Shown here piece by piece: positions 364-19,646 of a DNA stretch of 19,646 nucleotides (positions within the stretch are counted from its first letter, which is position 1; every line of letters starts with the position of its first letter). The DNA is taken from the IMG/VR virus record IMGVR_UViG_3300030444_000128. One strand, 5' to 3'. This DNA is from a virus (Duplodnaviria; Heunggongvirae; Uroviricota; Caudoviricetes). Both the position numbers and the translations under genes were made by a program. The notes beneath the pieces were generated by a model. That model did not search any database and was not told where the DNA came from. It was given only the letters and a program-made list of their open reading frames with translations.

Positions 364-429
364 AATAATAAATTAATTAGTGCATATGTGCTCTTTGATA
401 TAGCGCACATTAACATCGGGAGAATAATC

Positions 430-3085: not shown

Positions 3086-3086
3086 T

Positions 3087-3103
3087 ATTGCTCTAATAAT
3101 TCC
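3087..3103 (+). promoter_or_regulatory. C1-repressor operator-like site
   Basis: ATTGCTCTAATAATTCC versus the P1 C1 operator consensus ATTGCTCTAATAAATTT as I remember it (14/17). Lies immediately after the stop at 3083-3085. Confidence 0.6.
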
Positions 3104-3111
3104 ATATTTTT

Positions 3112-3141
3112 AAAACGTGATGTACACTCATCACGTTTTTT
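3112..3141. terminator. bidirectional rho-independent terminator
   Basis: AAAACGTGATG-TACACT-CATCACGTTTT: perfect 11-bp stem with an A-tract before and a T-tract after, so a hairpin plus U-run forms on either strand. Confidence 0.65.
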
Positions 3142-3152
3142 ATTAGAGCAAT
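3136..3152 (-). promoter_or_regulatory. C1-repressor operator-like site (inverted relative to 3087-3103)
   Basis: Minus strand reads ATTGCTCTAATAAAAAA (14/17 to consensus). Together with 3087-3103 it forms an inverted operator pair around the terminator, directly upstream of the 3167 operon. Confidence 0.55.
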
Positions 3153-3166
3153 CTATAAGGTGCACT

Positions 3167-3385
3167 ATGTGGCCATTCCGACGGAAATATCACTACTGGC
3201 TGATCGCCTTTGTTACGCTGACCGGCGGTATCAGGCATGTCATCACCAGGTATCGCAACAAGAGACTCACCTTAGCCAGAATTTTACAGGCTGCCATAGG
3301 TGAGGGACTGGATACAAATTGCGTAGTCCTTCCACCTTCATACTTAGGAAAAATGACCGAAGCACAAGCTAATACGGAACTTTGA
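3167..3385 (+). CDS. small hypothetical protein, probable single-pass membrane protein
   Basis: ORF 3167-3385 (72 aa). AAGGTG at 3157-3162, 4 nt before the ATG. Hydrophobic stretch YWLIAFVTLTGGI. Stop at 3383-3385 lies 1 nt before the next ATG (coupling). Confidence 0.4.
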   Translation: MWPFRRKYHYWLIAFVTLTGGIRHVITRYRNKRLTLARILQAAIGEGLDTNCVVLPPSYLGKMTEAQANTEL

Positions 3386-3386
3386 A

Positions 3387-4649
3387 ATGAGCACTTCAGC
3401 ACAAAACCAATCAATCGAAAATGTATCTATCCCTGATGTCCTGAATGCCGGTATCCCGGCCATTATCCAGAACATCCGGGCCGCGCAACGCCGCGTTAGT
3501 TGTGATGACCTCACAGCACGTTTTTTTGATAATGCGGTTCAGTCAGCGGAGATGCTTCACGCACAGCTTATTGATGTTTATAACGCAGAAGCTGATAGCC
3601 ATAACTCCCTGGTAGATGCAGCTGAAAATATGCAGTTGGATCTCGGTCTGAAGGGTAAAGAAATTGAAGAGCTTCAGCTGCAAATTGAACATTTGAAACG
3701 CCAGCAACAGGACGCGATCGACGATGCGACGCATGACGCCAACCAGCGTGCTGATAATGCCGAACGTATAAGCATTGAGCTGGAAACAAAACTCAATGAA
3801 ATGACCGCGATGGTTGAACTGCGGAACTCACAGATTTCAACGCTAAAATCTCAATATAAAGAGATCATGAAACTTGATCCTTTTAACCTTGAGAAACGCT
3901 ATAACAAAGCTAAAAGCGAGCGACAGGAACTGCGTAAGCAGGTCGCTGACCTTAACCAACAGCTCAAAAAAACTATTAAAGATGCAAGCGAAGCGCGCGT
4001 GGCATTTGCTAATAAAAAAGCAGAGGTTACCGCGCTGGTTAATGAGAATGCCAAATTTGCGACGCTCAAGAAGGAAATGTATGGCATTACTGAGCGCCGT
4101 TTCCCTGCAAGCAAACTTCATCCGACGTTAGGGCAAATCTCCTTCTTCCCGCGCCTCCTGGCTTATGGGATCTCATCGCCTAAAGAGTTCAATAACGAGC
4201 GTCCTTATATCGTTTCTAAGCTGGACTTTGCTTATCAGTTCTGCTGCGACATGGGCTATGCCATTGATATCCGAATCAACGAATGGTTGATGCCAAACTT
4301 CCAGCCGTTGGCAATTTTCCGCGAGTTCCAGCCGGAAGGTTGGGTAGAGTTCTTCCATGAATTGATCTGTAAAGAGATGGAAAGCCGCCGCCCGGAATTG
4401 GTCCGTCGAGTTGAGTGGGCGCAAGAGGTTATGTTGGCAGATGCAGAGCTGCCGTTCGAACCGGAATTCATTGATGATCTGGCAACTAAAGGGCTGCATA
4501 CCCTGTTTGATGTGGTTACCCGCCGTCATGAGCAGTTGGTTGTCGAATTGGGTTTAGAGGAAACTGCGGCAAGAAGACTTCTCGATGTTTGCTATGCACG
4601 TAGCGATGCATGGGAAAAAGAGAACGGCGGCACTATTTACGTTCGCTGA
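3387..4649 (+). CDS. hypothetical coiled-coil protein (420 aa)
   Basis: Long ORF with a heptad-like, charged Q/E/K-rich segment at roughly residues 90-220 and a globular C-terminal half. No family recognised. Followed by a strong terminator. Confidence 0.7.
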   Translation: MSTSAQNQSIENVSIPDVLNAGIPAIIQNIRAAQRRVSCDDLTARFFDNAVQSAEMLHAQLIDVYNAEADSHNSLVDAAENMQLDLGLKGKEIEELQLQIEHLKRQQQDAIDDATHDANQRADNAERISIELETKLNEMTAMVELRNSQISTLKSQYKEIMKLDPFNLEKRYNKAKSERQELRKQVADLNQQLKKTIKDASEARVAFANKKAEVTALVNENAKFATLKKEMYGITERRFPASKLHPTLGQISFFPRLLAYGISSPKEFNNERPYIVSKLDFAYQFCCDMGYAIDIRINEWLMPNFQPLAIFREFQPEGWVEFFHELICKEMESRRPELVRRVEWAQEVMLADAELPFEPEFIDDLATKGLHTLFDVVTRRHEQLVVELGLEETAARRLLDVCYARSDAWEKENGGTIYVR

Positions 4650-4668
4650 TGGTTACAGTGTCACTTTT

Positions 4669-4703
4669 AATGCTGGTGGAGTGCGCCCACCAGCATTTTT
4701 TTT
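4669..4703 (+). terminator. rho-independent terminator
   Basis: AATGCTGGTGG-AGTGCGC-CCACCAGCATT followed by TTTTTT: 11-bp GC-rich stem plus T-tract, 20 nt after the stop at 4649. Confidence 0.8.
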
Positions 4704-4722
4704 CGTCCAATGAGGAGGGCAT

Positions 4723-5229
4723 TTGAGTATTTACAATAAACACGCACACCAGGAACGTCCGTACATCGTCATAGTAGATATTGATGGGACGATATCAGAG
4801 GCAACGGAAGACAGGTTGCATTTACTTCCACCACCTGGCAAAGGTGCATTAACAGAGCACTGGAACGAGTTTAACCTTGCCTGTGACACTGATGCTCCCA
4901 TCACTCCAGTTATTGATATGGTGCGCCAGTTGTCCAGCATTTACACGCTCTGGTTTGTAACCGGGCGCTGTGAGATAGCCAGGGATAAAACACGAGCCTG
5001 GTTGCGTAAGCACGTAACAAATGGGGCTGAGCCTTTGCTATCTATGCGTCCTGCCACCGATGACAGAAATGATGGTCCAGCAAAGATTGATCTCCTTAAG
5101 AAAATTGGTCTAAGTAAAATTGCATTCGCGCTGGAAGATAAGATTGAAGTAGCGCGTGTTTTCAGGCATCACGGCGTGCTTACGTTAATGGTCAGAGAGT
5201 ACGAAAATGCGCTTCTTCATCAACAATAA
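4723..5229 (+). CDS. HAD-superfamily hydrolase-like protein (putative phosphatase)
   Basis: TTG start with GAGGAGG at 4712-4718. N-terminal VIVDIDGTIS (HAD motif I, DxDGT), FVTGR (motif II), AKIDLLKK and ALEDK (motifs III/IV-like). Confidence 0.65.
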   Translation: MSIYNKHAHQERPYIVIVDIDGTISEATEDRLHLLPPPGKGALTEHWNEFNLACDTDAPITPVIDMVRQLSSIYTLWFVTGRCEIARDKTRAWLRKHVTNGAEPLLSMRPATDDRNDGPAKIDLLKKIGLSKIAFALEDKIEVARVFRHHGVLTLMVREYENALLHQQ

Positions 5230-5245
5230 TTGCTCTAATAAATCT
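5229..5245 (+). promoter_or_regulatory. C1-repressor operator-like site
   Basis: ATTGCTCTAATAAATCT, 16/17 to the remembered consensus, overlapping the stop codon of the HAD gene. Confidence 0.65.
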
Positions 5246-5327
5246 TGATTTTTAAAACGGAGAAAGTGAAAATAAAAACATGCCGCAAGGCGCGGCATGT
5301 ATCCAATCAATCACAGGAGCTGAAAAT

Positions 5328-5414
5328 ATGAACACGGCATTCAAAATCATTATGGCCGCGATCTATTTCTGGCTGTTCTCTATCACTTTTGGCGGCATCG
5401 TCGCGCATGGGTAA
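5328..5414 (+). CDS. possible 28-aa hydrophobic peptide
   Basis: ATG 5328 preceded by AGGAG (5315-5319). Encodes MNTAFKIIMAAIYFWLFSITFGGIVAHG, essentially one transmembrane helix. Below the ORF-track cutoff; the call rests on the RBS and hydrophobicity only. Confidence 0.3.
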   Translation: MNTAFKIIMAAIYFWLFSITFGGIVAHG

Positions 5415-5493
5415 GGGGAGTATATTAGCCATTTGGAACCCCACGAGCTCTTGCGGGTTTAATTAAGAACCCGCAAGAAAAACACGAATTGGG

Positions 5494-8400
5494 CTATATT
5501 TTTCCGCCTACGCCTTTAAACTTCTCAATAAACGAGACGATTTTCTGGAAAACTGCCTGTTTTTTCGTTTTATATTGCGGATTCAACGGACTAAGTTTTG
5601 GTAATGTTTCGTTTAATTCTGTGCCATTTTCGGTGGCGTATTCGCGTTTTAAAGACGTGCGAATATAGCGTTTTGCTGCATCTTCATTGAGATTTTCTTC
5701 TTTTATCAATGCTTCTGCTTCACGTTGCTGTTCGCGTTGAGCAAACGTAAAGAATGCCTCAATGATACTGGCTTTGTCTGGTAAATCATCCAGGTTCGTT
5801 TGCTGAATAAAATCGACCACCAGGCCCTCTTTCGCCCGGTTCCCCAGGCTTGAACGAATTAAGCGTTTGACCTCTTCGATCATTTCGCCCTTGCCTTTAT
5901 TTTGTCTGTTGTGTTCGAAAATCAGTCCAAGGATATAATCCAGGTTTATTTCCTGAGACTTCAGCAAATCGACCTCAAAAACCACGTCATCCCAGTCAGT
6001 GGTTGATTTCTCTTTTTTCTCAGCTTCTTTCTCACGGCGCTGCCAGTCGCGAATATCGTTATAGGCAGAACGATAATCCTGAATCTTGCGATCAGCAGGG
6101 AGACGAATTGTTTGCAATTCAGCGAACTTTTCATCATCCACATAATGTTCTGCTTTGAATTTTTCTACCGCAACAGGATCGCTAAGATCGATTTGTTGCA
6201 GGGCTTTTAGCGTGGCAAATTCATCATAGTTTTGCAGGATGTTCTCGGCACGCAGGTATTCGCCAAACAGTTTAACGAAGTCTTTCTTCTCTTTTTCACT
6301 TTCAATACTGGCAGGGTCAGGGAACCGTTGTTCCAGTTCTGAAACTACTGCCATAAAGCCGCGTTTGGCTTCACCGGTGGCAGCATCAGTAAAACCTTCC
6401 ATATACTCTGCATAACTCTTTTCTAACACCACATTTTTGGTATTTTTATCACCAAACAGCGTTATGGCATCAATGGTTGAGCGTTCCAGATCCCGAAAAG
6501 TGACAATGTTACCGAAGGTTTTAGTGGCGTTATAAATGCGGTTGGTGCGGGAAAATGCCTGCATCAGGCCGTGAAAACGCAAGTTTTTATCGACGAATAG
6601 CGTGTTCAATGTTGGAGCGTCGAAGCCGGTTAAAAACATCCCAACGACAATTAACAGATCGATATCCTGATTTTTAACCCGTTGGGCTAAATCGCGATAG
6701 TAGTTCTGAAAACCGTTACCGTCGGTGCTGAAGTTAGTTTTAAAATAGCTGTTATACTCACGAATTGCAGCGTCAAGAAACTCTTTAGCACTGCTGTCCA
6801 TTGCGCTGGTATCAAAAGTTTCATCGGAAATTTCACCAATGGCATTTTGTTCTTCATTAGCGGCAAAGGAGAAGATTGTCGCAACACGCAGCGGTTTATA
6901 AGTTGCAGATTTATTAGCGGCTTCCTCTTGTAACCGTTTAAACGCCGCGTAATAGGCTTTTGCAGCATCCACGCTGCTCACTGCCAACATAGCATTAAAA
7001 CCTTTTGCGCCAGGGAAAGTACGGTGCGTCTTCTGGCGGAAGTTATTCAGAATATATTGCGTAATTTCCTGTATACGCATGGGATGAAGAAACGCCTGCT
7101 GATTTTCAGCCGCACTTAGTTTTTTCTCGTCAGTTTCTGTCTCTAAAGACTTAAACTGTGGCCGCACATCGTTGTAGTCCACCTTGAATTTGAGCACTTT
7201 TTCATCACGAATCGCATCGGTAATTACATACGAATGCAATTCACGACCAAATACGCTGGCGGTCGTTTCTGAGCCTAAGGCGTTTTCCGGGAAAATAGGT
7301 GTGCCGGTAAAACCAAACTGATAATAGCGTTTGAATTTCTTCTTCAGGTTTTTCTGCGCTTCTCCAAACTGGCTGCGGTGGCATTCATCAAATATAAACA
7401 CCACTTGCTGATTATATACAGGCAGGTCGCTTTCTGCTTTCATCAGGTTATTGAGTTTCTGAATAGTAGTGACGATAATTTTGTTATCGTCCTTATCCAG
7501 ATTTCGTTTAAGGCCTGCGGTATTTTCCGAGCCGTTGACGCTGTCTGGCGAAAAACGCTGATATTCCTTCATGGTCTGGTAATCGAGGTCTTTCCTGTCG
7601 ACCACAAAGAAGACTTTATCAATAAAGTCCAGCTCTGTTGCCAGACGCGCGGCTTTAAAGCTGGTGAGGGTTTTACCAGAACCGGTAGTGTGCCAGATAT
7701 ACCCACCGCTTTCCGGTTTTGACCAGTTCTTCGCTGTAAAGGAACTCTTAATTTTCCACAGAATGCGCTCGGTGGCGGCAATCTGGTACGGTCGCATCAC
7801 CAGTAGCGTCTGACTACTGTCAAAAACGCTGTAGTTCACCAGAACATTCAGCAGAGTATGTTTCTGGAAAAAGGTAGCGGTAAAGTCTTTGAGGTCTTTA
7901 ATCAGCGTGTTGTCTGATTTCGCCCAATTCATGGTGAAGTCAAAACTGTTTTTATCGCGCTTTGTCGTGTTGGCAAAATAACGGGTATCGGTGCCGTTAG
8001 AAATGACAAACAGTTGCAGATACTTAAACAGGGAATTTTCGCTGTTAAAACTCTCTTTACTGTAACGATGTATCTGGTTGAAAGCCTCACGAATCGCCAC
8101 CCCGCGTTTTTTTAGTTCGATTTGCACCAGCGGTAAACCATTAACCAGGATCGTGACGTCATAACGGTTAGCATGAGAACCCGTCTGTTCAAACTGCTGG
8201 ATAATCTGCACCTTATTGCGCATGAGATTCTTTTTATCTATCAAATAGATGTTCTCAAGTCGCCCGTCATCAAAAATAAAGTCGCAGATATAGTCGATAT
8301 GGATTTTACGGGTTTTATCCAGAATACCATCGCTGGGGTTGTCCAGATACTGCTCCGTGAAGCGCCGCCACTCGCTGTCATTAAACATCACACCATTGAG

Positions 8401-8610
8401 GCTCTGAAGCTGTTCCCGAACATTGGACAGCATTGCCGACTGTGATTTTACGGAAATAAATTCATAACCCTGATTTTGCAGGTCCTGAATCAGTTCACGT
8501 TCCAGGTCCGATTCGCTCTGGTAGCTGTCGCCTGTTGGCTCAGCTTTGATGTACTTATCAAGAACGATAAAGTTATTGGATTCAGCAATGGTGTGTGTCT
8601 GATGAGTCAT
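5494..8610 (-). CDS. hsdR: type I restriction enzyme R subunit (HsdR), EcoR124-like (type IC)
   Basis: 1038-aa ORF with helicase motifs ([12 protein letters not shown] Walker A; [14 protein letters not shown]-box-like) and the type I HsdR architecture. Length and N-terminus match my memory of EcoR124 HsdR. Lies downstream of hsdM-hsdS on the same strand. Confidence 0.93.
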
Positions 8611-8731
8611 AGCGCATCCTTTGTGCCGTCTGGCAAGGGCCGGAAGGGGGGTAATGGTGACTTCCGGCGCGTAAAAAATAGTCTATATACTGACCGGGTG
8701 TTAAGGTGGTCCGATCGGTAGCAATGATCAA

Positions 8732-9949
8732 TTAATTACTGGCAGTTTCAGGTTTCGGGAAACTGAACAGTAAATCACGGTAGTATTCGTATTGTTTCTG
8801 GCGCAACTCGATTTCACGCGGGAGACCTTCGGTGATAGAGTTGGTCAGGGTGTCGAATTTATCGAGTATTTCGACAATGCGAGCTTGTTCCTTAAGTGAT
8901 TTTTCGTGATCTTTAGGATATGGAACCGGAATCATAATTTTTGAAAAACCATTAATGAGTAGTGTATTAACTTTTGTTCTGGCTACATACTTTGCTTTTT
9001 CAGAAATAAACGAATCGGTTTGCATGTAATAGGAAATAAATTTTGGATTCAAAGAATGTCGAAAAGCATAACAGTGATCATGAATAGCGATATCGTCATC
9101 CCCAAGCCATGCCACTGCTTTACCAACGTCTTCTACAGTCTCCCCCACGTCAGTTATCACGACATCTCCATGTTTGGCATAGCGTAATGACGCTGCCATA
9201 TCAGCTCTAACCTGTGATAACGAATGAGTTGTGTAAACACCATATCGTGTATATATCTCACCATAATGGATTACACTGATACCACCATCTTCTACATAAT
9301 CTGCTTTAGTAAAACGTTTTCCACGAATAAACTCACCAATTTCCCCCAAAGTCTTCCACTCAACCTCACCATCTTTAAAACTCAACAACTGGTCGCGATA
9401 GTAGTTGTACTGTTTTTTACGCATGTTAAGCTCAGCGGTAAGCTCAGCGGTAAGTGCAGTAAATTTATCCAGAATCCGAACGATTTCAGACTGGATGGCA
9501 AGGGATTTTTCCGGATTATCCGGGCAGGGGATGGGGATAGGGAAATTCTCTAAGGTTGATAGCACGATATATGTCATTGCCGCGCTATTTGTTCTTTCCT
9601 CGAGATATTTCTTCAGGCTATGGCTAAGCACAAAATACAAAAATCTAACACTTACATTTTCGTCGAAATTTGTCAGAACATAGGTGCGCTGATAAGCCTC
9701 AAACTTGCCGATGTAATGCTTCACCTCACCAACATTCGCATTGCCTGCAATCAGCAATGCCTCTGTATCCCAGCGGAATTTATCAATTTTGCTTGTCTCT
9801 TTGGCTGTCGTGAAGAACATATACTCTCCATCATCAACAGCCGCATTCGCATTAAGCTTTCCTGTTTCAATTTTGCAAGTTTGCCCAAGTGTCTTCCACT
9901 CAACCTCAACCCCATCCAGCAATTTTTCCAGATAACTCATCTCGCTCAT
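8732..9949 (-). CDS. hsdS: type I restriction-modification specificity subunit (HsdS), type IC with TAEL x2 central repeat
   Basis: 405-aa ORF with two target-recognition halves (EVEWKTLG occurs twice) and the central conserved region ...[29 protein letters not shown]. Start ATG overlaps the hsdM stop (ATGA). Confidence 0.92.
9429..9452 (-). repeat. 12-bp tandem repeat (2 copies) encoding TAEL-TAEL in the HsdS central spacer
   Basis: Plus strand GCTCAGCGGTAA GCTCAGCGGTAA. On the coding strand this is the LTAELTAEL segment whose copy number is known to set the spacer length of type IC recognition sites. Confidence 0.9.
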
Positions 9950-11508
9950 TTCTGCACCTCGCAGCCTTCAATTTCAGCCACAATTGCATCAATATCTTTA
10001 CGCAACTGGTCGATTTTGCTGACCGTGGTTTTCAGCTCTGCATTCAGCTCACCGATATCGATAATTTCGCGGTTATCTTTCGCTTCCACATAGCTGCTCA
10101 CCGACAGGTTATAGTCATTCGCGACAACAGTCTCAAACGCAACAGATTTCGCCAGATGAGCAACATCTTCCTTGCTGGCAAATACCTGCATAATCTGTTC
10201 GATATGGGCATCGGTCAGGATATTGTTGTTGGTTTCTTTTTTGAACAGTTCGCTGGCATCAATAAACTGAACTTTGGTATCCGTTTTATGTTTAGACAGC
10301 ACCAGAATGTTTACAGCAATAGTGGTGCCAAAGAACAGGTTCGGTGCCAGTGAAATCACGGTTTCGACATAGTTATTATCGACCAGATACTGACGGATTT
10401 TCTGCTCCGCGCCGCCACGGTAAAAAATACCCGGGAAGCAGACAATCGCAGCACGACCTTTGGCCGAAAGATAGTTCAGCGCATGTAGTACAAACGCAAA
10501 GTCAGCTTTGGATTTGGGGGCCAGGACGCCAGCCGGGGCAAAACGTTCATCGTTAATCAGCGTCGGGTCATCGCTGCCAATCCATTTCACCGAATACGGC
10601 GGGTTAGAAACGATGGCATCAAACGGTTTTTCATCTCTGAAGTGTGGCTCAGTCAGTGTATTACCCAGCTTGATATCAAACTTGTCGTAGTTGATGTTGT
10701 GCAAAAACATGTTCATACGTGCCAGGTTATAGGTTGTATGGTTGATTTCCTGACCAAAAAAGCCTTCTTCGATGATATGGTTATCAAACTGCTTTTTAGC
10801 CTGCAACAACAGTGAGCCGGAACCCGCTGCCGGGTCGTAGATTTTGTTAACGTTGGTCTGCCCGTGCATAGCCAGTTGTGCAATCAGCTTGGAGACGTGC
10901 TGCGGTGTAAAGAACTCACCGCCTGACTTACCGGCATTTGCCGCATAGTTAGAAATCAGGAACTCATAGGCATCACCGAACAGGTCAATCTGATGTTCGT
11001 TGAAGTCACCAAGTTTTAACCCTTCAACCCCTTTCAGAACCGCAGCCAGGCGGGCATTTTTATCTTTAACGGTGTTACCCAGGCGGTTACTGGTGGTATC
11101 GAAATCAGCAAACAAACCTTTGATGTCTGCTTCTGAAGGGTAGCCGTAAGCAGAACTTTCGATAGCAACGAAGATGCTGTTTAAATCTGCGTTCAGTCTG
11201 TCATTGGTATTTGCTTTCGCAGCTACGTTGCAGAAAAGCTGACTGGGGTAGATGAAGTAGCCTTTAGTTTTGATGGCATCGTCTTTAATGTCATCAGTAA
11301 TTACGCTGTCATCCAGTTTCGCATAACAGATACTGTCATCACCGGCTTCAATATAACTGGAAAAATTTTCGCTGATAAAACGGTAGAAAAGTGCGCCCAG
11401 AACGTATTGCTTAAAATCCCATCCATCGACCGAACCCCTGACATCGTTAGCAATTTGCCAGATTTGACGATGAAGCTCTGCACGTTGTTGAATACTTGTC
11501 ATTTTCAT
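9946..11508 (-). CDS. hsdM: type I restriction-modification N6-adenine DNA methyltransferase subunit (HsdM)
   Basis: 520-aa ORF with the catalytic NPPY motif ([10 protein letters not shown]) and an AdoMet-binding region ([10 protein letters not shown]). Confidence 0.95.
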
Positions 11509-11647
11509 CCACTTATTTCAGGCTTATGTAATTGGCGGTGATTCTACAGCAACTTGGATGCTTTAGCAGTTCGGACATTAGGCTACGAATGACCTGCCTA
11601 GAGGTTTGTTAAGCCGCAAAGTGCTGGTGCTTTATGTCTGTGAAGTT

Positions 11648-11678
11648 TATAATTGTGTACACATAACGAGTACACGAG
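11648..11678 (+). promoter_or_regulatory. phd-doc promoter -10 (TATAAT) and Phd/Doc operator palindromes
   Basis: TATAAT at 11648-11653, then TGTGTACACATAACGAGTACACGAG containing GTGTACAC-type palindromic half-sites, then GAGGT SD 4 nt before the phd ATG. Consistent with the autoregulated P1 addiction operator. Confidence 0.7.
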
Positions 11679-11684
11679 GTATTT

Positions 11685-11906
11685 ATGCAATCCATTAACT
11701 TCCGTACCGCGCGCGGCAACCTTTCTGAAGTGCTCAACAATGTTGAGGCCGGGGAAGAGGTTGAAATCACCCGCAGAGGCCGTGAGCCAGCAGTAATTGT
11801 CAGCAAGGCTACTTTCGAAGCCTACAAAAAAGCGGCGCTGGATGCTGAATTTGCATCCCTGTTTGACACCCTGGACTCCACCAACAAGGAACTGGTTAAC
11901 CGATAA
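11685..11906 (+). CDS. phd: Phd antitoxin (prevent host death)
   Basis: 73 aa, [40 protein letters not shown]...; matches P1 Phd as I remember it. Stop overlaps the doc start (TAATG). Confidence 0.95.
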
Positions 11907-12286
11907 TGAGGCATATATCACCGGAAGAACTTATTGCGCTTCATGATGCGAATATAAACCGCTACGGCGGCCTGCCGGGAATGTCTGATCCGGGTAGGGC
12001 AGAGGCCATTATCGGGAGAGTTCAGGCCAGAGTTGCCTACGAAGAGATCACCGACCTTTTCGAAGTCTCCGCCACCTACCTGGTGGCTACAGCGAGAGGG
12101 CATATATTCAATGATGCCAATAAGCGTACCGCGCTAAACAGTGCGCTGCTATTTCTACGCCGTAACGGGGTGCAGGTATTTGATTCACCTGAACTGGCAG
12201 ACCTTACCGTAGGGACTGCGACTGGCGAGATATCTGTATCTACTGTCGCCGCCACGTTACGTAGATTGTATGGTTCTGCGGAGTAG
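11906..12286 (+). CDS. doc: Doc toxin (death on curing; Fic-fold kinase)
   Basis: 126 aa with the Fic-type motif [11 protein letters not shown]; matches P1 Doc as I remember it. Confidence 0.95.
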
Positions 12287-12290
12287 ATTA

Positions 12291-12470
12291 ATGGCACGCA
12301 AATGCAACAAATTGTCCCATAAAGCGTTAAAGATGCTTCTTGATGGTGTGAGTCGCCGCGAGGTAAAGCAATACCTGGTTGGTAAGCAAATTGGTGCCAG
12401 GACCGCTATTGCTGTGTTATGCCGTCAGGAAATGGTTGTGCTTAAACAGAGAATGCCGGGCAGCAGATAA
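12291..12470 (+). CDS. pdcA: small protein downstream of doc (pdcA position in P1)
   Basis: ORF 12270-12470. I place the start at ATG 12291 (MARKCNKLSHK...) just after the doc stop, with GGAG upstream. Named by synteny only. Confidence 0.4.
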   Translation: MARKCNKLSHKALKMLLDGVSRREVKQYLVGKQIGARTAIAVLCRQEMVVLKQRMPGSR

Positions 12471-12497
12471 AGCCCAATCAGTGATGAAAGGTGTGAT

Positions 12498-13541
12498 GTG
12501 AAAGCCATTATTACTCCCTTTGTACAAAAAGAGCTTGGCGTCGCCACATTCAAAGTGGATCAGGAAGTCAGAAAGCTGGTGGAGGCTGGCCGTAAATTTA
12601 TTATGGAGCCGGTGCCGCGTGAGTTAATCGAGCACATGGAAGACGGCCTCGTTGTTACCGAGCAAACCATGGCAACAAATGAGGCGTTGCAGCCGTTTTT
12701 TAACAGCGATGAACTGTTTCGCCGTATTGGTGGAATTGACTCGCTGATGGCGTGGTTGCGCAGGAAAGAGGGGCAATGCCAGGCCGCAGATCGTAGTTGG
12801 TGTGACAACCATATTGTCCACGCTGAACGAGACAATAGCGCGGTGTTGTTGTGCTGGCATCACGATAACCATTACCGGATGCGTGGTTTTAATGAGCTGA
12901 AAGAAACGCTGCATAATAATCGCGTTAACTGGATACTGGATGTCGCCCGTCAGGAAATGGGGCTTTCAGATGGCCATGATTTAAGTATTCAGGAACTGTG
13001 CTGGTGGGCTTTCATGCGCAACATGATGCACCTGATGCCGGAAGAAGTTTGCCGTATATCAATAAATAAGATGAAAGCCGCAACGCAGGATAGCGGACCT
13101 CTGAAAGAGGCGGATATTCGTCCGTATGACGATCGCGCTACAGCATATGTTCAGATGATGGAAGAACGCGCTGCGCCGATGCGTGCAAAAGTATGCCCTG
13201 TGGATGTTGACTCCGACCCTGGCATGGCGCATTTCAAAATACCAAAACTGCAATCGCTAAAATTACCTGAGTACATGGACTTTGTTGCTTCCCGTCCATG
13301 CTGTGGGTGTGGAGCGGCGGGAGCTGGCGCTCACATTACGCCTTATATAGTTCGTCATAGTCGATTATGCGCGCATGACATTTATGCTATTCCTCTGTGC
13401 CAGTCATGCCAGCGTGATATTGAGCGTGACCGCGATAATTGGGAGAAAACACACGGCAGGCTGGCGATGCATCAACGATTGTTCTTTGATTACGCGCTTG
13501 GAGTCGGCGTTATCACAAGTCATTCGTCGAGCGTTAGATAA
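12498..13541 (+). CDS. pdcB: PdcB-position protein with C-terminal Cys cluster (347 aa)
   Basis: GTG start with AAAGG upstream. C-terminal [14 protein letters not shown]...C...CQSCQ looks like a zinc-binding cluster. Named by synteny (between doc and lpa). Confidence 0.55.
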
Positions 13542-13542
13542 A

Positions 13543-13584
13543 ATTGCTCTAATGTGTTGCTATTTCTTTAATCGAGGGTATTAT
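13543..13584 (+). promoter_or_regulatory. C1 operator-like site overlapping a candidate sigma70 promoter for lpa
   Basis: ATTGCTCTAATGTGTTG (13543-13559, about 13/17 to consensus) overlaps a -35-like TTGCTA (13557-13562); 16-bp spacer; -10 TATTAT (13579-13584). Fits C1 repression of lpa. Confidence 0.5.
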
Positions 13585-13629
13585 ATTCCACGTTGATTAG
13601 TTGACATGGGCTAATCAGTAGGTGACAGG

Positions 13630-14082
13630 ATGTTACTTAACTGGCAGGGACGCCACTTCATGGAAATAAATCACTCACGAATAACATCGTACGAGATTGC
13701 GGATTACATGATCCGCACTAAATCTCTTCTATCAGCGAAAGAACTCGCAGCAATTCTTGAAAAGGAATACCCGCATCTGGATGTCGATAAGCGCGACGTT
13801 TATCTGCGCTTAAAGGCTATCGCTGTGTCTAAGTATTCGTCTGTTTTGATTGATGACAGTACACGCCCACGTAGATTTCAGATCCACTCTCTGAATCCTG
13901 AATTCTTTCGCCGCAGCCGCGCGCCGCGCCGGTTTGATGAAAAACTCCAGAACGAACTCTATATGACGCAGGACGAAAAGGAACGCCGGGAACACCAGCC
14001 TTGGGTAATGGCGCGTCAACTTTTCAATAAGGTAGCCCGTCAGCACCGTCATTACGGTAATGCCACATCCGCACGTATCTGA
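13630..14082 (+). CDS. lpa: late promoter activator Lpa (by position and size)
   Basis: 150-aa basic protein lying between pdcB and pacA as in P1, with a C1 operator-like site upstream. Assignment by synteny; no motif verified. Confidence 0.6.
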   Translation: MLLNWQGRHFMEINHSRITSYEIADYMIRTKSLLSAKELAAILEKEYPHLDVDKRDVYLRLKAIAVSKYSSVLIDDSTRPRRFQIHSLNPEFFRRSRAPRRFDEKLQNELYMTQDEKERREHQPWVMARQLFNKVARQHRHYGNATSARI

Positions 14083-14167
14083 TTGATTGCTTGCCCGTTC
14101 CGGGCCTTTTGACATGTGACTTTCGTTACCCTCGCGTCAAAAAGAGTTTTTACGAAAGGAAGCATAA

Positions 14168-15361
14168 GTGACCTGGGACGATCACAAGAAGAATTTTGCT
14201 CGCCTGGCGCGAGATGGTGGTTACACCATCGCACAGTATGCCGCCGAGTTTAATCTTAACCCTAATACCGCACGTCGTTATCTCCGTGCCTTCAAAGAAG
14301 ACACCAGGACAGCGGACAGCCGCAAGCCAAATAAGCCAGTCAGGAAGCCACTAAAAAGCATGATCATTGATCACTCTAATGATCAACATGCAGGTGATCA
14401 CATTGCGGCTGAAACAGCGGAAAAACAAAGAGTTAATGCCGTTGTCAGTGCCGCAGTCGAGAATGCGAAGCGCCAAAATAAGCGCATAAATGATCGTTCA
14501 GATGATCATGACGTGATCACCCGCGCCCACCGGACCTTACGTGATCGCCTGGAACGCGACACCCTGGATGATGATGGTGAACGCTTTGAATTCGAAGCTG
14601 GCGATTACCTGATAGATAACGTTGAAGCGCGGAAGGCCGCGCGCGCTATGTTGCGTCGGTCCGGGGCCGATGTTCTGGAAACCACTCTTCTGGAAAAGTC
14701 TCTTTCTCATCTCCTTATGCTGGAGAACGCCAGGGATACGTGTATTCGCCTGGTGCAGGAAATGCGCGATCAGCAAAAAGACGATGATGAAGGTACTCCG
14801 CCTGAATACCGTATCGCGAGCATGCTAAACAGCTGTTCCGCGCAGATAAGCAGTCTGATCAACACCATTTACAGCATCCGGAATAACTATCGAAAAGAAA
14901 GCCGGGAGGCGGAAAAGCACGCTTTGTCTATGGGGCAAGCTGGCATTGTTAAGCTGGCATATGAACGAAAGCGTGAAAATAACTGGTCAGTGCTGGAAGC
15001 AGCTGAATTCATCGAGGCGCATGGTGGGAAAGTTCCGCCCCTGATGCTGGAGCAAATCAAAGCCGATCTGCGTGCTCCTAAGACCAATACCGATGATGAG
15101 GAAAGGCAAACAGCCGTCGGTGGCCCTTCTCTTGACGATCTGGACAAAGTTGCGCGAGAACGGGCCGCCAACCGCCGCGCCGATGCCGCATTGTGGATTG
15201 AGCAGCGTAGGGAAGAAATCGCCGATATCGTTGATACAGGCGGTTATGGAGATGTTGATACTGAAGGTGTATCAAACGACCCATGGCTGGAACAAGACCT
15301 GGACGAAGACGAGGAGGAAGACGAAGAAGTTACCCGCAAGCTATACGGGGATGATGATTAA
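14168..15361 (+). CDS. pacA: P1 PacA (pacase / terminase small component)
   Basis: 397-aa ORF from GTG 14168 (GGAAG SD). Contains the characteristic pac hexanucleotide cluster near its 5' end and an acidic C-terminal tail. Stop overlaps the next start (ATGA). Confidence 0.9.
14361..14519. other. P1 pac packaging site (4 + 3 TGATCA/G hexanucleotide repeats with Dam GATC sites)
   Basis: TGATCA at 14361, 14368, 14380 and 14395; TGATCG at 14491; TGATCA at 14503 and 14514. Two clusters about 90 bp apart inside pacA, matching the described roughly 160-bp pac architecture. Confidence 0.9.
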
Positions 15362-16340
15362 TGGCCAGAAGTTGCGTAACGGATCCTCGTTGGCGCGAGC
15401 TGGTGGCGCTATATCGTTATGACTGGATTGCTGCCGCTGATGTTTTGTTCGGCAAAACACCTACCTGGCAGCAGGATCTGATTATTGAGTCTGTGCAGGA
15501 ACAGGGTAGCAAGACATCTGTTTCGTCTGGTCACGGTACCGGGAAATCAGACATGACTTCTATCATGATCATGTTGTTCATAATCATGTATCCCGGTGCC
15601 CGCGCCATTATCGTTGCGAACAAAATTCAGCAGGTAATGACCGGTATATTCAAGTACATCAAGATAAACTGGGCTACTGCCACCAGCCGTTTTCCATGGC
15701 TTGCTGATTATTTTGTTCTGACAGAAACCGCTTTCTATGAGGTTACTGGTAAAGGTGTATGGACTGTATCAATATCATGATGGTGTCCGGCCAGCGAAAT
15801 AAACGCCGTGTAATCAACTATCGAATGCTGGAATACACAGACGTTACAGAAACGCAGCTTGCCGCCAAAATTTTCGCAGAATGTAATCCTGAGCGATTCC
15901 CCAATATCACCATAGCGATAGATGGCGATGGCCTGGGTAAAGCAACAGCGGATCTGATGTACGAGTATTATGGTATTACCGTACAGCGTATACGCTGGGG
16001 TAAAAAGATGCATAGCCGTGAAGATAAGAGCCTGTACTTTGATAAACGTGCTTATGCCAACGTTCAAGCCGCAGAGGCCGTAAAATCTGGTCGTATGAGA
16101 CTGGATAAGGGTAATGAAACTATTGAGGAAGCGTCGAAAATCCCTGTAGGGATTAACTCCGCAGGTCAATGGAAGGTGATGAGTAAGGAGGATATGAAGA
16201 AAAAACTCAACCTGCACTCACCAGACCATTGGGATACATATTGTTTCGCTATGCTGGCGGATTATGTTCCCCAGGATGAAGTGCTTAGCGTCGAAGACGA
16301 AGCGCAGGTTGATGAAGCTCTGGCATGGCTTAATGAATGA
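15361..16340 (+). pseudogene. pacB: pacB (terminase large component), apparently internally deleted and frameshifted
   Basis: Two ORFs in different frames: 15361-15780 carries the Walker A (SGHGTGKSD) and 15759-16340 carries a nuclease-domain-like segment ([11 protein letters not shown]...HSPDHWD). No Walker B anywhere. The combined length (~326 codons) is well below the ~494 aa I recall for P1 PacB. A TAA at 15750-15752 blocks the frame of the second ORF upstream. Confidence 0.6.
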
Positions 16341-16343
16341 ACA

Positions 16344-16360
16344 TTTGCTCTAATAAATTG
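16344..16360 (+). promoter_or_regulatory. C1-repressor operator-like site
   Basis: TTTGCTCTAATAAATTG, 15/17 to consensus, immediately after the pacB stop. Confidence 0.6.
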
Positions 16361-16490
16361 TGTTTTTTAGCTACCGATGTTACATTGAACCTGACCTCTT
16401 GCGCCTTGAGGCATTTTCGGTTTATGCTTATCAGGCACCTCATTAAAACGGGTGCCGGGATTGGCCTCCCGCTTAAGTCTAAGGCGATAC

Positions 16491-16514
16491 AGACGCCGCT
16501 CGCGTCTTTTTTTT
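16491..16514 (+). terminator. probable rho-independent terminator
   Basis: AGACGC-CGCTC-GCGTCT followed by seven T: short GC-rich stem plus T-tract, downstream of pacB. Confidence 0.5.
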
Positions 16515-16679
16515 GTATCGGCGTACACGCACACCTCTACAATGGTGGGCTGTATGGGGCTACCTTCGGGTAGGCTGGTTACCTTGGACGCCAGTAAGGC
16601 CAACTCCGTACAGTCCACCGCCAGCAAGATTGGTCTCTTCTGCGGTGGTTACATACCAACGTCTAAGGAGGCTGCCAAT

Positions 16680-16901
16680 ATGGCTACTATCCCTACCCCA
16701 ACTCATCCTGAATTTATCTGGCGCTTTTACTCCTGCCAAAAACGTCACTATCACTTCGTTATTGCACCAACAGAAGATGAGGCCCGCTCTCAGCTTCCTG
16801 ACGCCCCATGTATTTTCTCTGCCCGTTTTTCCACTGATTCACGCAATTCTCTCAGTTACTGGTGCCTCCCTGTTAACGCTTCTGTTCAGGAGGGGCTATG
16901 A
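16680..16901 (+). CDS. small hypothetical protein (73 aa)
   Basis: ATG 16680 preceded by AAGGAGG (16665-16671). Stop TGA overlaps the ATG of the next gene (ATGA at 16898), suggesting coupling. It is the inner part of ORF 16452-16901. Confidence 0.45.
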   Translation: MATIPTPTHPEFIWRFYSCQKRHYHFVIAPTEDEARSQLPDAPCIFSARFSTDSRNSLSYWCLPVNASVQEGL

Positions 16902-18016
16902 GAACGTCATTAGTCACCCGTGAAGAGATGATCGAGGCAATTGAACAGCACACTGCCTGTATCAGCACCAGGGATATTCCCAGTGTTATAGCCAACTACT
17001 TCATGATCACTAAACAACTTTACCGGAGAAAGGACAAGAACGCGGTTCACCGTATCCTGCTGTCTGATATTCGCGAATACCTGCTCGAACAGGGTCATCT
17101 GAATTACGCAACCGTCGCAGCCGAAGCACGCAAGGAGGCACACAGAATGAAAGCAACTAACGTTAAATCAGAAAAAATTCATGCACCTTCAGTTCAGGAA
17201 TCGGAGCTGGTGGTTGTTCAGAATCAGTCTGATGAAATTCCCGTTCTGGAATGGCAGGGAGTGCGTGTAGTGACAACCGAGACTCTTGCTAGAGGGTATG
17301 GGACAGAAACAATCCGTATTCGCCAAAATCATCATGAGAACAAAGTACGCTTTGTTGAAGGGAAGCACTTTTTCAAAGTTGAAGGAGAATCATTGCGCGA
17401 GTTGAAGCACAGAGTAGCTTTAAACTACTCTGTAAAAATTGCTCGCAATGTTCGCTCACTCACCCTCTGGACAGAACGCGGCGCAGCCCGCCACGCTAAA
17501 ATGCTCGAAACCGATCAGGCATGGGCATTCTTTGAAAAACTGGAAGACAGCTACTTCCGACAAAAAGAACAGCAACCGATCGCAATCCCCCAGACGCTTC
17601 CTGAAGCCCTACGCCTGGCTGCCGAACTGGCTGAACAAAAGCAACTTCTGGAACAGAAAGCCCACCAGCTAAATCAGCAGCTGGTGGCCGCCGCTCCTAA
17701 AGTCGATTTTGCCGACCGGGTATCAGTAGCTAAAGGGATCCTGATTGGGAATTTTGCAAAGGTTGTTGGACTTAAGCAAAACGCGCTGTTTGTCTGGTTA
17801 CGGGAGAACGGCATCCTGATAGCGTCCGGTGGACGTAAAAATGTGCCGTTCCAGCAGTACATCAACGCGGGGTATTTCACGGTGAAAGAAGTGGTGCTGG
17901 ATGATGAAGATGGCTACCAGATACGGTTGACGCCTCAATTAACGGGTAAAGGCCAGCAGTGGTTGACGCGTAAACTGCTCGATGCTGGCTTGTTAAAACC
18001 GGTGGCAGCTGAATAA
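16898..18016 (+). CDS. antirepressor-like protein (ORF6N-type N-terminal domain + KilA-C/Ant C-terminal domain)
   Basis: Middle region VRVVTTETLARGYGTETIRIRQNHHENKVRFVEGKHFFKVEGESLRELK resembles the ORF6N domain; the C-terminal part (...LFVWLRENGILIASGG...QQYINAGYFTVKE) resembles the phage antirepressor C-terminal domain. AGGAGG 4 nt before ATG 16898. An internal ATG at 17147 also has a strong AGGAGG SD, so a shorter 289-aa product is possible. Confidence 0.7.
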   Translation: MRTSLVTREEMIEAIEQHTACISTRDIPSVIANYFMITKQLYRRKDKNAVHRILLSDIREYLLEQGHLNYATVAAEARKEAHRMKATNVKSEKIHAPSVQESELVVVQNQSDEIPVLEWQGVRVVTTETLARGYGTETIRIRQNHHENKVRFVEGKHFFKVEGESLRELKHRVALNYSVKIARNVRSLTLWTERGAARHAKMLETDQAWAFFEKLEDSYFRQKEQQPIAIPQTLPEALRLAAELAEQKQLLEQKAHQLNQQLVAAAPKVDFADRVSVAKGILIGNFAKVVGLKQNALFVWLRENGILIASGGRKNVPFQQYINAGYFTVKEVVLDDEDGYQIRLTPQLTGKGQQWLTRKLLDAGLLKPVAAE

Positions 18017-18048
18017 TGGAAGAATGCCCGGTTGATGCCGGGCATAAT

Positions 18049-18900
18049 TTATTGCGCGCTTTCGGGGTTGTCGTTTACTGGCTGCCCCTTCTTGGTTTTA
18101 CGACTGCGCGTAACTGATGCGGCTGACTTAACCTTTTTCTCTTCGCGAGTGATGGCAATTTGTTTTTTTACATTTTCAATATCTGCCAGGCGATATATTT
18201 TTGCTTGCGGCCAGCGGTCGCAGATGATCGGTTCTATGGAGTCATAAAGGCTAAATTTTGCTTTTTCGAATTCACCGTTGATGATAATTCCATCACGGAG
18301 AGTTTCATCGCAGATAAACACGCCACACAGTGGCACATGGTAACTAACTGATTTACCATCATTGTAGTTAGGGCTACTGGAAATGTAGTGGACGCGCAGC
18401 ATTGTTTCGCTAAAGCCGTGTACGCGCATACGGAATTTTTCATCCTCCGGGTACTGCCTCATTAGCTCTTTTGTTGCTTCCAGGTTCTCTATGTATTTCG
18501 CACTGTGCTCATTGATCCCCGCGCTTTTTTGGATGCGAATGTCCTTATCAATCAGATGAATAATGCGGCCAGCGGTCATGTTGACGCTGTTCACAGCTTC
18601 TGTCTGATAAGTTGTAACCTTGCGCACACCGCGAAGGATGTTAGGCACTGGATATAAAATAGTCTTTGGGATATTGAGGTCTGGGTACTGTTCCAGTTCC
18701 CGCGCCATTAAAGTCCATTTATCAATTTCAGCCTGAATGCTGTCAGTTTCTTTGAACGGTAGAACGACAACCGGGCGTACAGGACGACCGTCGCTGGCTG
18801 TATCAACGTGTTGGGCGCGTGCAACAGCTTTTTTTAGAAAGAGATCCCTGAAGCTGACGAACTCCTGGTACAGTTGTTCGCCGTAGACATAATTTATCAT
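18049..18900 (-). CDS. c1: P1 C1 repressor
   Basis: 283-aa minus-strand ORF with GGAGGAGG SD. Size, position downstream of coi and adjacent operator-like sites match P1 c1. Sequence recognised from memory, not aligned. Confidence 0.9.
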   Translation of the reverse strand: MINYVYGEQLYQEFVSFRDLFLKKAVARAQHVDTASDGRPVRPVVVLPFKETDSIQAEIDKWTLMARELEQYPDLNIPKTILYPVPNILRGVRKVTTYQTEAVNSVNMTAGRIIHLIDKDIRIQKSAGINEHSAKYIENLEATKELMRQYPEDEKFRMRVHGFSETMLRVHYISSSPNYNDGKSVSYHVPLCGVFICDETLRDGIIINGEFEKAKFSLYDSIEPIICDRWPQAKIYRLADIENVKKQIAITREEKKVKSAASVTRSRKTKKGQPVNDNPESAQ

Positions 18901-18993
18901 TGATCCTCCTCCAGAATTGACATGGTCAATAACGCCCGGCTGAGAAAACCGGTCATTACTGACCTATATTATAGAGGGATCAAACAAAAATAA

Positions 18994-19010
18994 TAGATTT
19001 ATTAGTGCAT
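18994..19010 (-). promoter_or_regulatory. C1 operator-like site between coi and c1
   Basis: Minus strand ATGCACTAATAAATCTA, an operator-like variant with the CTAATAAAT core, directly after the coi stop and about 95 bp upstream of the c1 start. Confidence 0.5.
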
Positions 19011-19220
19011 TTATTGTGAGTCTAACTGGTTAGTTGCCATGAGATATTCGATTGTGTCAGTGAGGTCATCCAGGTCGTCTTGGGTGATGCGGTACTCCTG
19101 ATTGGATATCTTTGAGTAGTGTTCAGCAATGGCGCGGGCTGCGTCGGTTTCGGCAGGGTCTACAGATAAAGCGTTAGAGCAATGTCTAACGTCGTCGATG
19201 GTTGGTTGAATGAAAGCCAT
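19011..19220 (-). CDS. coi: Coi (C1 inactivator)
   Basis: 69-aa acidic protein immediately upstream of c1 on the same strand, with GAGG SD. Matches the P1 coi-c1 arrangement. Confidence 0.85.
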   Translation of the reverse strand: MAFIQPTIDDVRHCSNALSVDPAETDAARAIAEHYSKISNQEYRITQDDLDDLTDTIEYLMATNQLDSQ

Positions 19221-19339
19221 AATTATGCCTCACTGTATTGACAACACAGAGCCTGAAGCTCTGACCTACTGTTTCACCCATGATCCATGCTGGGGTAATC
19301 TAACAACATTGCGCTGTGTGTAAGATGAGCAATGCATAG

Positions 19340-19646
<307 letters not shown>

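What the first reader, a model, noticed from the sequence alone, without database searches (positions are those of the whole stretch)
15361..16340. pacB appears internally deleted and frameshifted while pacA and the pac site are intact
The Walker-A N-terminal segment (15361-15780) and the nuclease-like C-terminal segment (15759-16340) lie in different frames, with a TAA at 15750-15752 blocking the second frame. No Walker B motif is present. The locus can encode about 326 aa at most, against the ~494 aa (56 kDa) I recall for P1 PacB. This implies a roughly 0.5-kb deletion with a junction near 15750-15780, leaving an element that keeps pac and PacA but probably cannot cut and package its own DNA. 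It may therefore persist as a plasmid only, or depend on a helper.
Basis: partly seen in the sequence, partly recalled or inferred. Interest (0 to 1): 0.6.

Follow-up and report, generated by a model that had tools for sequence, protein, structure and literature searches.

The report
Deleted terminase gene, decaying P1 plasmid
The large-terminase gene pacB of a P1-derived E. coli plasmid has lost exactly 505 bp and is a dead gene; the deletion is real and shared by a small natural lineage, but it is ordinary decay in an element that had probably already stopped being a phage.

Summary
Against intact pacB (1485 nt, 494 aa) in P1 and in a relative identical across pacB, the window lacks exactly 505 bp (pacB nt 409-913). 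The junction is at 15767-15768, with 2 bp of microhomology and no flanking repeats. The deletion removes residues 137-304 and shifts the frame. The lost residues carry Walker B (LYIIDE), a motif-III-like LLLSQPT and the first nuclease acidic strand (VDVAGGTGRD). pacA, the late promoter, lpa and the pac site are intact. It is not an assembly error: the exact truncated 139-aa product is on 22 public contigs, and all eight loci fetched carry the identical junction with 1-12 differences from the window. The same contigs end at the window's IS1 (in pmgM) and IS5 (in imcA). Complete plasmids sharing either IS junction are decayed P1-derived IncY plasmids. They carry cargo and mobilisation genes, and no P1 tail or baseplate DNA was found in the parts examined. 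pacB is also broken in other independent ways in related elements. The pacB loss is therefore most likely secondary decay in an element that was already only a plasmid. This route is described in the literature. Interest is low.

The parts
15361..15780 (+). pacB 5' remnant. It encodes native PacB residues 1-136 (P-loop GHGTGKS at 56-62), then the frameshifted tail S-I-S and a TGA stop.
   Evidence: PHROG 2 (terminase large subunit) hits residues 32-105.
15767..15768 (+). Deletion junction. The 2-bp TA microhomology joins pacB nt 408 to nt 914. The missing 505 bp correspond to pacB nt 409-913, about P1 NC_005856 92130-92634.
   Evidence: No direct or inverted repeat lies at the endpoints in the intact gene.
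15759..16340 (+). pacB 3' remnant. It is in the native frame from residue 305 to 494. Gene callers start it at ATG 15777 (187 aa), which overlaps the upstream TGA as ATGA.
   Evidence: PHROG 2 hits the C-terminal part.
14168..15361 (+). pacA, intact at 397 aa.
   Evidence: 100% identical to PacA of NZ_CP145673.1 and 384 of 398 aligned positions (stop included) identical to P1 PacA. PHROG 1711 terminase, E=3e-204.
14361..14519 (+). pac packaging site inside pacA: four TGATCA hexamers at 14361-14400 and three TGATC(A/G) hexamers at 14491-14519, flanking the IHF and cleavage region.
   Evidence: 230/231 identical to P1 across 14330-14560; hexamer positions; P1 annotation of the IHF and cleavage sites.
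14114..14132 (+). Late promoter LPpac.
   Evidence: 19/19 identical to the annotated P1 LPpac.
13630..14082 (+). lpa, the late promoter activator, intact.
   Evidence: All 150 residues identical to P1 Lpa.
1..144 (-). End of an IS1 copy abutting the pmgM remnant.
   Evidence: P1 homology starts at 145. The 52-mer across the junction is identical in NZ_CP086387.1, NZ_LT883139.1 and NZ_LR134247.1, where an IS1 family transposase is annotated directly to the left.
145..363 (+). 3' remnant of pmgM (VRR-NUC protein), from codon 121 of 193.
   Evidence: The truncated 69-aa product is listed in 939 blocks of the collection.
19340..19646 (+). Start of an IS5-family element (ISKpn26-like) inserted in imcA at about P1 nt 94521.
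   Evidence: P1 homology ends at 19339. The identical 52-mer junction occurs in NZ_CP145673.1, L004 and L005. The element is annotated as an ISKpn26 family transposase.

Best explanation
pacB, the large terminase (pacase B) gene of a P1-derived plasmid, has been turned into a pseudogene by one illegitimate 505-bp deletion that used only 2 bp of microhomology. The deletion removes residues 137-304 and shifts the frame. What remains is a 136-residue N-terminal stub with only the P-loop, and a C-terminal piece that lacks the first acidic strand of its nuclease domain. Walker B with its catalytic Glu, the motif-III-like element, the rest of the ATPase domain and the start of the nuclease domain are gone. 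The element therefore cannot make the PacA-PacB enzyme that cuts pac and drives headful packaging. This step is inferred from published P1 genetics, not tested here. The allele is real and marks a young, nearly clonal lineage found in E. coli isolates and human-gut metagenomes. In that lineage the deletion is linked to an IS1 that truncates pmgM and an IS5 inserted in imcA. Complete plasmids sharing either IS junction are P1-derived IncY plasmids that have lost the adjacent tail and baseplate genes and gained cargo and mobilisation genes. The most likely history is that the phage-plasmid had already become a plain plasmid, and pacB then decayed under relaxed selection. pacA, pac, lpa and LPpac simply have not decayed yet.
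For: Deletion mapping: (every relative matches in two pieces spanning 505 bp more than the query; pacB is 100% identical to NZ_CP145673.1 outside the gap). Lost motifs. Intact PacB is a TerL: PHROG 2, E=3.7e-40. Reality and lineage: the exact 139-aa product is on 22 contigs and in 43 index blocks. The eight fetched loci come from eight different sample accessions (ENA, NCBI GCA_004271625.1, Logan), carry the identical junction and are at least 99.9% identical to the window. Linkage to the IS lesions: contigs end at window-equivalent 147..19351, 28..20517 and -243.., that is at or inside the same IS1 and IS5, and the imcA/IS5 junction is present in L004 and L005. Decayed relatives: NZ_CP145673.1 has no P1 70000-79209 DNA anywhere. 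In p1585m1_C and LT883139, mobI, mobH and IS copies lie left of the IS1, and the parts of p1585m1_C examined carry ttr, a heat-resistance island and efflux genes. Recurrent pacB loss. pacB essentiality: EOP <1.2E-7 in PMC10695390. PacA plus PacB are needed for pac cleavage: Skorupski 1994, cited in PMC10028697. Conversion of P1-like phage-plasmids to plasmids by gene loss: PMC10879196.
Against: Only 19.6 kb of the window's replicon is visible, and the longest contig of the lineage is 37 kb, of which about 20 kb was read. Absence of head and tail genes in this exact lineage is therefore inferred from relatives, not shown. No complete record with the deletion junction exists in the E. coli complete genomes, PLSDB, the GTDB representatives, IMG/VR or the JGI metagenomes. 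Loss of function was not measured. The motif assignments (Walker B, motif III, nuclease Asp) rest on sequence patterns and PHROG coverage. Pfam and NCBIfam have no model that hits PacB, and PDB sequence matches are insignificant.
Confidence: 0.85

Rival explanations
1. One reading: an otherwise complete P1-like phage-plasmid in which the pacB deletion is the single disabling lesion. It would survive as a plasmid and could be packaged only when a helper P1-like phage supplies PacB.
For: pac, pacA, lpa, LPpac, c1, coi and ant are intact. pmgM is non-essential and imcA was not tested in P1, so the two IS insertions alone need not disable a phage. Contig L004 continues beyond the IS5 into cre and further P1-like genes.
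Against: In every locus fetched with the same IS1/pmgM junction, the DNA across the IS1 is not P1. The only complete plasmid with the same imcA/IS5 junction and an identical pacAB region has no P1 70000-79209 DNA. All ΔpacB contigs stop at these IS copies.
Confidence: 0.1
2. Sequencing or assembly artefact: the source molecule has an intact pacB and the 505-bp gap is a mis-join.
For: No complete genome or PLSDB record has the junction.
Against: The identical junction was recovered in independent assemblies from different projects, assemblers and sample types. The product is on 22 contigs under several NCBI protein accessions. No repeat at the endpoints could mislead an assembler.
Confidence: 0.02
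3. The two pacB pieces still work together as a split terminase. The C-terminal piece would be translated by coupling through the ATGA stop-start overlap at 15777-15780.
For: The deletion created an ATGA overlap, and gene callers do call a 187-aa product.
Against: 168 residues are missing, not merely split. The missing block holds the only Walker B pattern and the VDVAGG acidic strand. No ATPase can function without Walker B (established knowledge of P-loop and terminase ATPases).
Confidence: 0.01

Closest known systems
Bacteriophage P1 pacase operon (LPpac-pacA-pac-pacB; NC_005856 90475-93206)
   Same: Same gene order and flanks (pdcB, lpa upstream; c1 downstream). LPpac is identical, Lpa is 150/150 aa identical, PacA is 384/398 aligned positions (stop included) identical and pac is 230/231 nt identical. 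The remaining PacB residues are collinear with P1 PacB.
   Different: pacB lacks nt 409-913 and is frameshifted. A c4-icd-ant module sits between pacB and c1, a known variant also found in RCS47 and pTZ20_1P (PMC6906374). A type I hsdRMS block sits where P1 has pmgT-humD.
[quoted passage not shown]
   Same: They share the window's diagnostic IS junctions: imcA/IS5 with NZ_CP145673.1, and IS1/pmgM with the other two. They carry the same P1 block from phd-doc to c1, and the two with the IS1/pmgM junction also carry the pmg and hsd genes. NZ_CP145673.1 and p1585m1_C have IncY repA-parAB. P1 morphogenesis DNA next to pmgM is lost, and cargo, many IS copies and mob genes have been gained.
   Different: pacB is intact in NZ_CP145673.1 and LT883139 and is 5'-truncated next to an IS2 remnant in p1585m1_C. 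None of them has the 505-bp deletion. The window's full replicon is not available for comparison.
Other natural pacB null alleles in E. coli P1-like elements
   Same: They keep the same N-terminal stub of about 130 residues with the P-loop. P0003 (158 aa, 155 contigs including a 2.37-Mb contig) and P0009 (144 aa) are examples.
   Different: Those alleles read into foreign sequence after codons 130 and 129, so they are insertions rather than an internal deletion.

Membership tests
Phage large terminase (TerL) / P1 PacB | Significant homology to the TerL family along the whole length | tested here: met
   Intact PacB of the closest relative hits PHROG 2 'terminase large subunit' at E=3.7e-40 over residues 33-474. 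The window fragments hit the two ends of that profile only. Pfam and NCBIfam have no matching model.
Phage large terminase (TerL) / P1 PacB | P-loop / Walker A | tested here: met
   SGHGTGKS at residues 55-62 of the 5' remnant, a deviant spacing relative to GxxxxGK[ST].
Phage large terminase (TerL) / P1 PacB | Walker B (hhhhDE) with the catalytic Glu | tested here: not met
   No hhhhDE pattern occurs in either window fragment. The only one in intact PacB (LYIIDE, 158-163) lies inside the deleted block.
Phage large terminase (TerL) / P1 PacB | Complete RNase-H-like nuclease domain, including the first acidic strand | tested here: not met
   VDVAGGTGRD (292-301) lies in the deleted block, and the native frame resumes at residue 305. 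Assigning this strand as catalytic is an inference from sequence pattern; no structure was modelled.
Phage large terminase (TerL) / P1 PacB | A single uninterrupted ORF of about 494 aa | tested here: not met
   Two ORFs of 139 and 193 aa in different frames, against 494 aa in P1 and in all close relatives examined.
P1 pac site | 4+3 Dam-methylatable TGATC(A/G) hexamers flanking the IHF site and cleavage region inside pacA | tested here: met
   Hexamers at 14361, 14368, 14380, 14395 and at 14491, 14503, 14514. The region is 230/231 identical to P1, with the single change outside the hexamers and outside the annotated IHF and cleavage sites.
Functional P1-like phage-plasmid | Full set of essential lytic genes (packaging, head, tail, lysis, late activator) | tested here: not met
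   pacB is essential (PMC10695390) and is inactivated here. The other morphogenesis genes lie outside the window. They are absent from the complete relative NZ_CP145673.1 and from the fetched regions of the other relatives that share the IS junctions.
Functional P1-like phage-plasmid | Production of infective or transducing particles on induction | not testable with these tools
   This needs induction, plaque and transduction assays.
P1-derived 'plasmid-only' elements (PMC10879196) | P1 plasmid-maintenance and immunity genes retained while essential phage genes are lost | tested here: inconclusive
   The window keeps phd-doc, c1, coi and ant and has lost pacB function. repA-parAB and the absence of head and tail genes were seen only in relatives sharing the IS junctions, not in this lineage itself.

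The most novel reading that the evidence does not exclude
An intact pac site, PacA, Lpa and the late promoter beside a dead pacB could be more than leftovers. A superinfecting or co-resident P1-like phage supplying PacB would cut this plasmid's pac and package it at high frequency, as happens with a P1 phagemid. The element would then be a helper-dependent, satellite-like mobilisable plasmid. Alternatively, PacA plus the P-loop stub could sequester helper pacase and interfere with the incoming phage.
Probability: 0.05. Interest if true: 0.5.

Novelty: already known. Interest (0 to 1): 0.15.

Why it matters
It matters little beyond annotation. Both ORFs should be marked as one pacB pseudogene rather than as 'large terminase' and 'terminase, partial', which is how public records name them. 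The element should not be counted as an inducible or transducing phage-plasmid in surveys, and the pacAB region is a poor marker of phage competence. The junction (GGACTGTA|TCAATATC) together with the IS1/pmgM and imcA/IS5 junctions gives a precise marker set for tracking this plasmid lineage. The several independent pacB lesions add a small data point to the published picture of P1-like phage-plasmids decaying into plasmids.

Tried and rejected
Exact searches for the junction in complete E. coli genomes, PLSDB, the GTDB species representatives, IMG/VR and the JGI metagenomes all found nothing. An exact-product look-up succeeded instead. The 80-mer junction search was uninformative because two-piece matches to intact genes filled the listing. 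Pfam, NCBIfam and a PDB sequence search gave no usable domain map for PacB, so motifs were read from the sequence and from PHROG coverage. The first literature search was polluted by 'PacBio' matching 'pacB', and one call failed on a term shorter than three characters. I looked for repeats or palindromes that could explain the endpoints and found none. Restriction-site or engineered origins were considered by eye and do not fit the junction. I tested whether the foreign tails of the other short PacB forms came from alternative pacB frames, which would mean further internal deletions; they do not, so those are insertions.

Full report
**1. Observation**

The window has two ORFs in different frames: 15361..15780 (139 aa, containing GHGTGKS) and 15759..16340 (193 aa). 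TAA at 15750-15752 closes the second frame upstream. Megablast of 14100-16700 against phage and plasmid collections matched every relative in two pieces. That includes records 100% identical to the query. Each match spans about 505 bp more in the record than in the query. In P1 (NC_005856), NZ_CP145673.1 and NZ_CP099352.1, pacB is a single 1485-nt ORF of 494 aa.

A base-by-base comparison with NZ_CP145673.1 gives 408 nt of exact left match and 574 nt of exact right match. They overlap by 2 nt (TA at window 15767-15768), and 505 nt are absent. The missing block is pacB nt 409-913, about P1 92130-92634. Because 505 is not a multiple of three, the frame shifts. The 5' ORF encodes native residues 1-136 followed by S-I-S and a stop. 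The native frame resumes at residue 305.

pacA is 100% identical to that of the intact relative. The late promoter LPpac is 19/19 identical to P1, and Lpa matches P1 at all 150 residues. The pac region is 230/231 identical to P1, with the 4+3 TGATC(A/G) hexamers in place.

**2. What was lost**

Intact PacB matches PHROG 2 'terminase large subunit' over residues 33-474 at E=3.7e-40. The two window fragments match only the two ends of that profile. Pfam and NCBIfam have no model that hits PacB, and PDB sequence matches are insignificant.

The deleted residues 137-304 contain three recognisable elements:
- The protein's only hhhhDE pattern, LYIIDE at 158-163. This is Walker B with the catalytic Glu, about 95 residues after the P-loop.
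- LLLSQPT, which resembles terminase motif III.
- ACVDVAGGTGRD (290-301), which has the form of the first acidic strand of terminase nuclease domains.

These assignments are sequence-pattern inferences. Neither remnant can plausibly act as an ATPase or a complete nuclease. The deletion happens to create an ATGA stop-start overlap at 15777-15780, so the 187-aa C-terminal piece may be translated. That does not restore the missing 168 residues.

**3. Real deletion or artefact**

The junction 30- and 36-mers are absent from 5,426 complete E. coli genomes, PLSDB, the GTDB representatives, IMG/VR and the JGI metagenomes. However, the exact 139-aa product, frameshifted tail included, is on record on 22 contigs and in 43 index blocks. 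It carries NCBI protein accessions EAC0076659.1, EGD4989523.1 and EGD5163042.1.

Eight loci were fetched, each from a different sample accession: four ENA metagenome assemblies, NCBI isolate assembly GCA_004271625.1 and three Logan run assemblies. All carry the identical junction and are 99.90-99.99% identical to the window. Differences number 1-12 per locus and fall mostly into three groups:
- one window-specific SNP at 13450;
- a recombination-like patch in hsdR in one contig;
- IS5 sequence variants.

One contig also has a different hsdS segment. No repeat exists at the endpoints that could mislead an assembler or drive slippage. This is therefore a genuine single-origin illegitimate deletion that marks a young natural lineage.

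**4. Context**

Against P1, the window reads as follows (IS identities):

| Window coordinates | Content |
|---|---|
| 1-144 | IS1 end |
| 145-5418 | P1 79210-84482: pmgM from codon 121, then pmgN through pap |
| 5494-11508 | type I hsdRMS block where P1 has pmgT-humD |
| 11609-15764 | phd, doc, pdcA, pdcB, lpa, pacA and the 5' pacB remnant |
| 15767-16338 | 3' pacB remnant |
| 16341-18016 | c4/icd/ant module |
| 18050-19339 | c1, coi, imcB and part of imcA |
| 19340-19646 | IS5-family element inserted in imcA |

The ΔpacB contigs end at or inside the same IS1 and IS5 copies: window-equivalent 147..19351, 28..20517 and -243 onward. L004 and L005 contain the identical imcA/IS5 junction. The three lesions are therefore linked.

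The IS1-truncated pmgM product is listed in 939 index blocks, including contigs of chromosomal size. The exact IS1/pmgM junction occurs in three complete genomes. In all of these loci the DNA across the IS1 is not P1. In most it is further IS copies and IncA/C-type mobI and mobH genes. No P1 70000-79209 DNA was found in any of them. That stretch holds ban, dbn, tail and baseplate genes 5, 6, 24, 7, 25, 26, pmgL and the 5' half of pmgM.

NZ_CP145673.1 has the identical imcA/IS5 junction and a pacAB region identical to the window apart from the deletion. It is an 85-kb IncY+IncX1 plasmid full of IS copies and polysaccharide-synthesis cargo, and it has none of that P1 stretch. The portions of p1585m1_C that were examined carry tetrathionate reductase, a heat-resistance island and efflux genes.

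pacB is also broken independently elsewhere:
- In p1585m1_C it is 5'-truncated next to an IS2 remnant, leaving residues 127-494.
- P0003 carries an insertion after codon 130 and is on 155 contigs; P0009 carries one after codon 129.
- P0025 is a further 5'-replaced form.

**5. Mechanism and consequence**

The following are shown here:
- the deletion itself and the frameshift;
- the loss of the motifs listed above;
- intact pacA, pac, lpa and LPpac;
- recurrence of the same allele in independent samples;
- linkage to the two IS lesions.

From the literature, pacB knock-down abolishes P1 plaque formation (EOP <1.2E-7), and amber mutants are known (PMC10695390). Faithful pac cleavage needs PacA, PacB, IHF and HU (Skorupski et al. 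1994, as cited in PMC10028697).

It is inferred that the element cannot cut pac or package DNA on its own. It is also inferred that the lineage had probably already lost phage morphogenesis genes, so the pacB deletion is secondary decay under relaxed selection rather than the event that ended the phage lifestyle. I could not see the complete replicon of the ΔpacB lineage, so the alternative remains possible at about 10%: an otherwise complete phage-plasmid that is now helper-dependent.

**6. Comparison with what is known, and novelty**

Pfeifer and Rocha (PMC10879196) describe exactly this route. [quoted passage not shown] The relatives seen here, with mobH and mobI, fit that description. The ant module between pacB and c1 is also a known variant (PMC6906374). 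This particular 505-bp allele does not seem to have been discussed in the papers searched, but it is already in public protein databases as 'large terminase' or 'terminase, partial'. It is an ordinary pseudogene of a known kind.

**7. Verdict**

The added value here is fourfold:
- the exact junction;
- proof that the deletion is real and shared by a natural lineage;
- the linked IS lesions;
- the likelihood that the element was already a decayed, plasmid-only P1 derivative.

Interest is low (0.15). The only mildly novel reading not excluded is that retained pac and PacA allow high-frequency helper-mediated packaging, or interference with incoming P1-like phages. I put that at about 5%.

Noticed in passing
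window 16435-16625: Rfam finds isrK (16435-16512, 60.8 bits) and a C4 antisense RNA (16538-16625, 75.9 bits) directly downstream of pacB and upstream of the icd-like ORF and ant (16898-18016). This is a complete immI-like c4-icd-ant module inserted between pacB and c1, where P1 has only 24 bp. The insertion is a known variant in RCS47 and pTZ20_1P (PMC6906374).
   Followed up: partly
window 1-363: An IS1 truncates pmgM (VRR-NUC protein) at codon 120/121. The resulting 69-aa product is listed in 939 index blocks, including chromosomal contigs of 2.4 and 5.0 Mb (e.g. NCTC9040, NZ_LR134247.1). This IS1-bounded P1 fragment is therefore widespread in E. coli on both plasmids and chromosomes.
   Followed up: partly
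window 19340-19646: An IS5-family element (ISKpn26-like) is inserted in imcA at about P1 nt 94521. It separates c1-coi-imcB from the upstream P1coi promoter and the Oc1d operator. The same junction is present in NZ_CP145673.1 and in ΔpacB contigs L004 and L005. Any effect on immunity control was not examined.
   Followed up: partly
window 5494-11508: A type I restriction-modification operon (hsdR 1038 aa, hsdS 405 aa, hsdM 520 aa, minus strand) sits where P1 has pmgT-humD. Among otherwise near-identical ΔpacB contigs, one (L004) has a different hsdS segment (401 aa) and another (L009) has an 8-SNP patch in hsdR. This suggests recombination at the specificity locus.
   Followed up: no
proteins P0003, P0009, P0025; L025 33172-34299: There are at least four other independent pacB lesions in E. 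coli P1-like elements. Two are insertions after codons 130 (158-aa product, 155 contigs) and 129, only 6-7 codons from the window's breakpoint. One is an IS2-associated 5' truncation that leaves aa 127-494. One is a 5'-replaced form starting at aa 360. Whether codons 127-137 are an insertion or deletion hotspot was not tested.
   Followed up: partly
L025 / L026 (NZ_CP086387.1, NZ_LT883139.1), 10-17 kb left of the IS1/pmgM junction: IncA/C-type mobilisation genes (mobI, MobH relaxase) interrupted by IS4321 lie next to the P1 remnant. This matches the published conversion of P1-like phage-plasmids into conjugatively mobilisable plasmids.
   Followed up: no
window 13450: There is a single window-specific base (C) in pdcB. 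All seven ΔpacB contigs covering this position have T.
   Followed up: no
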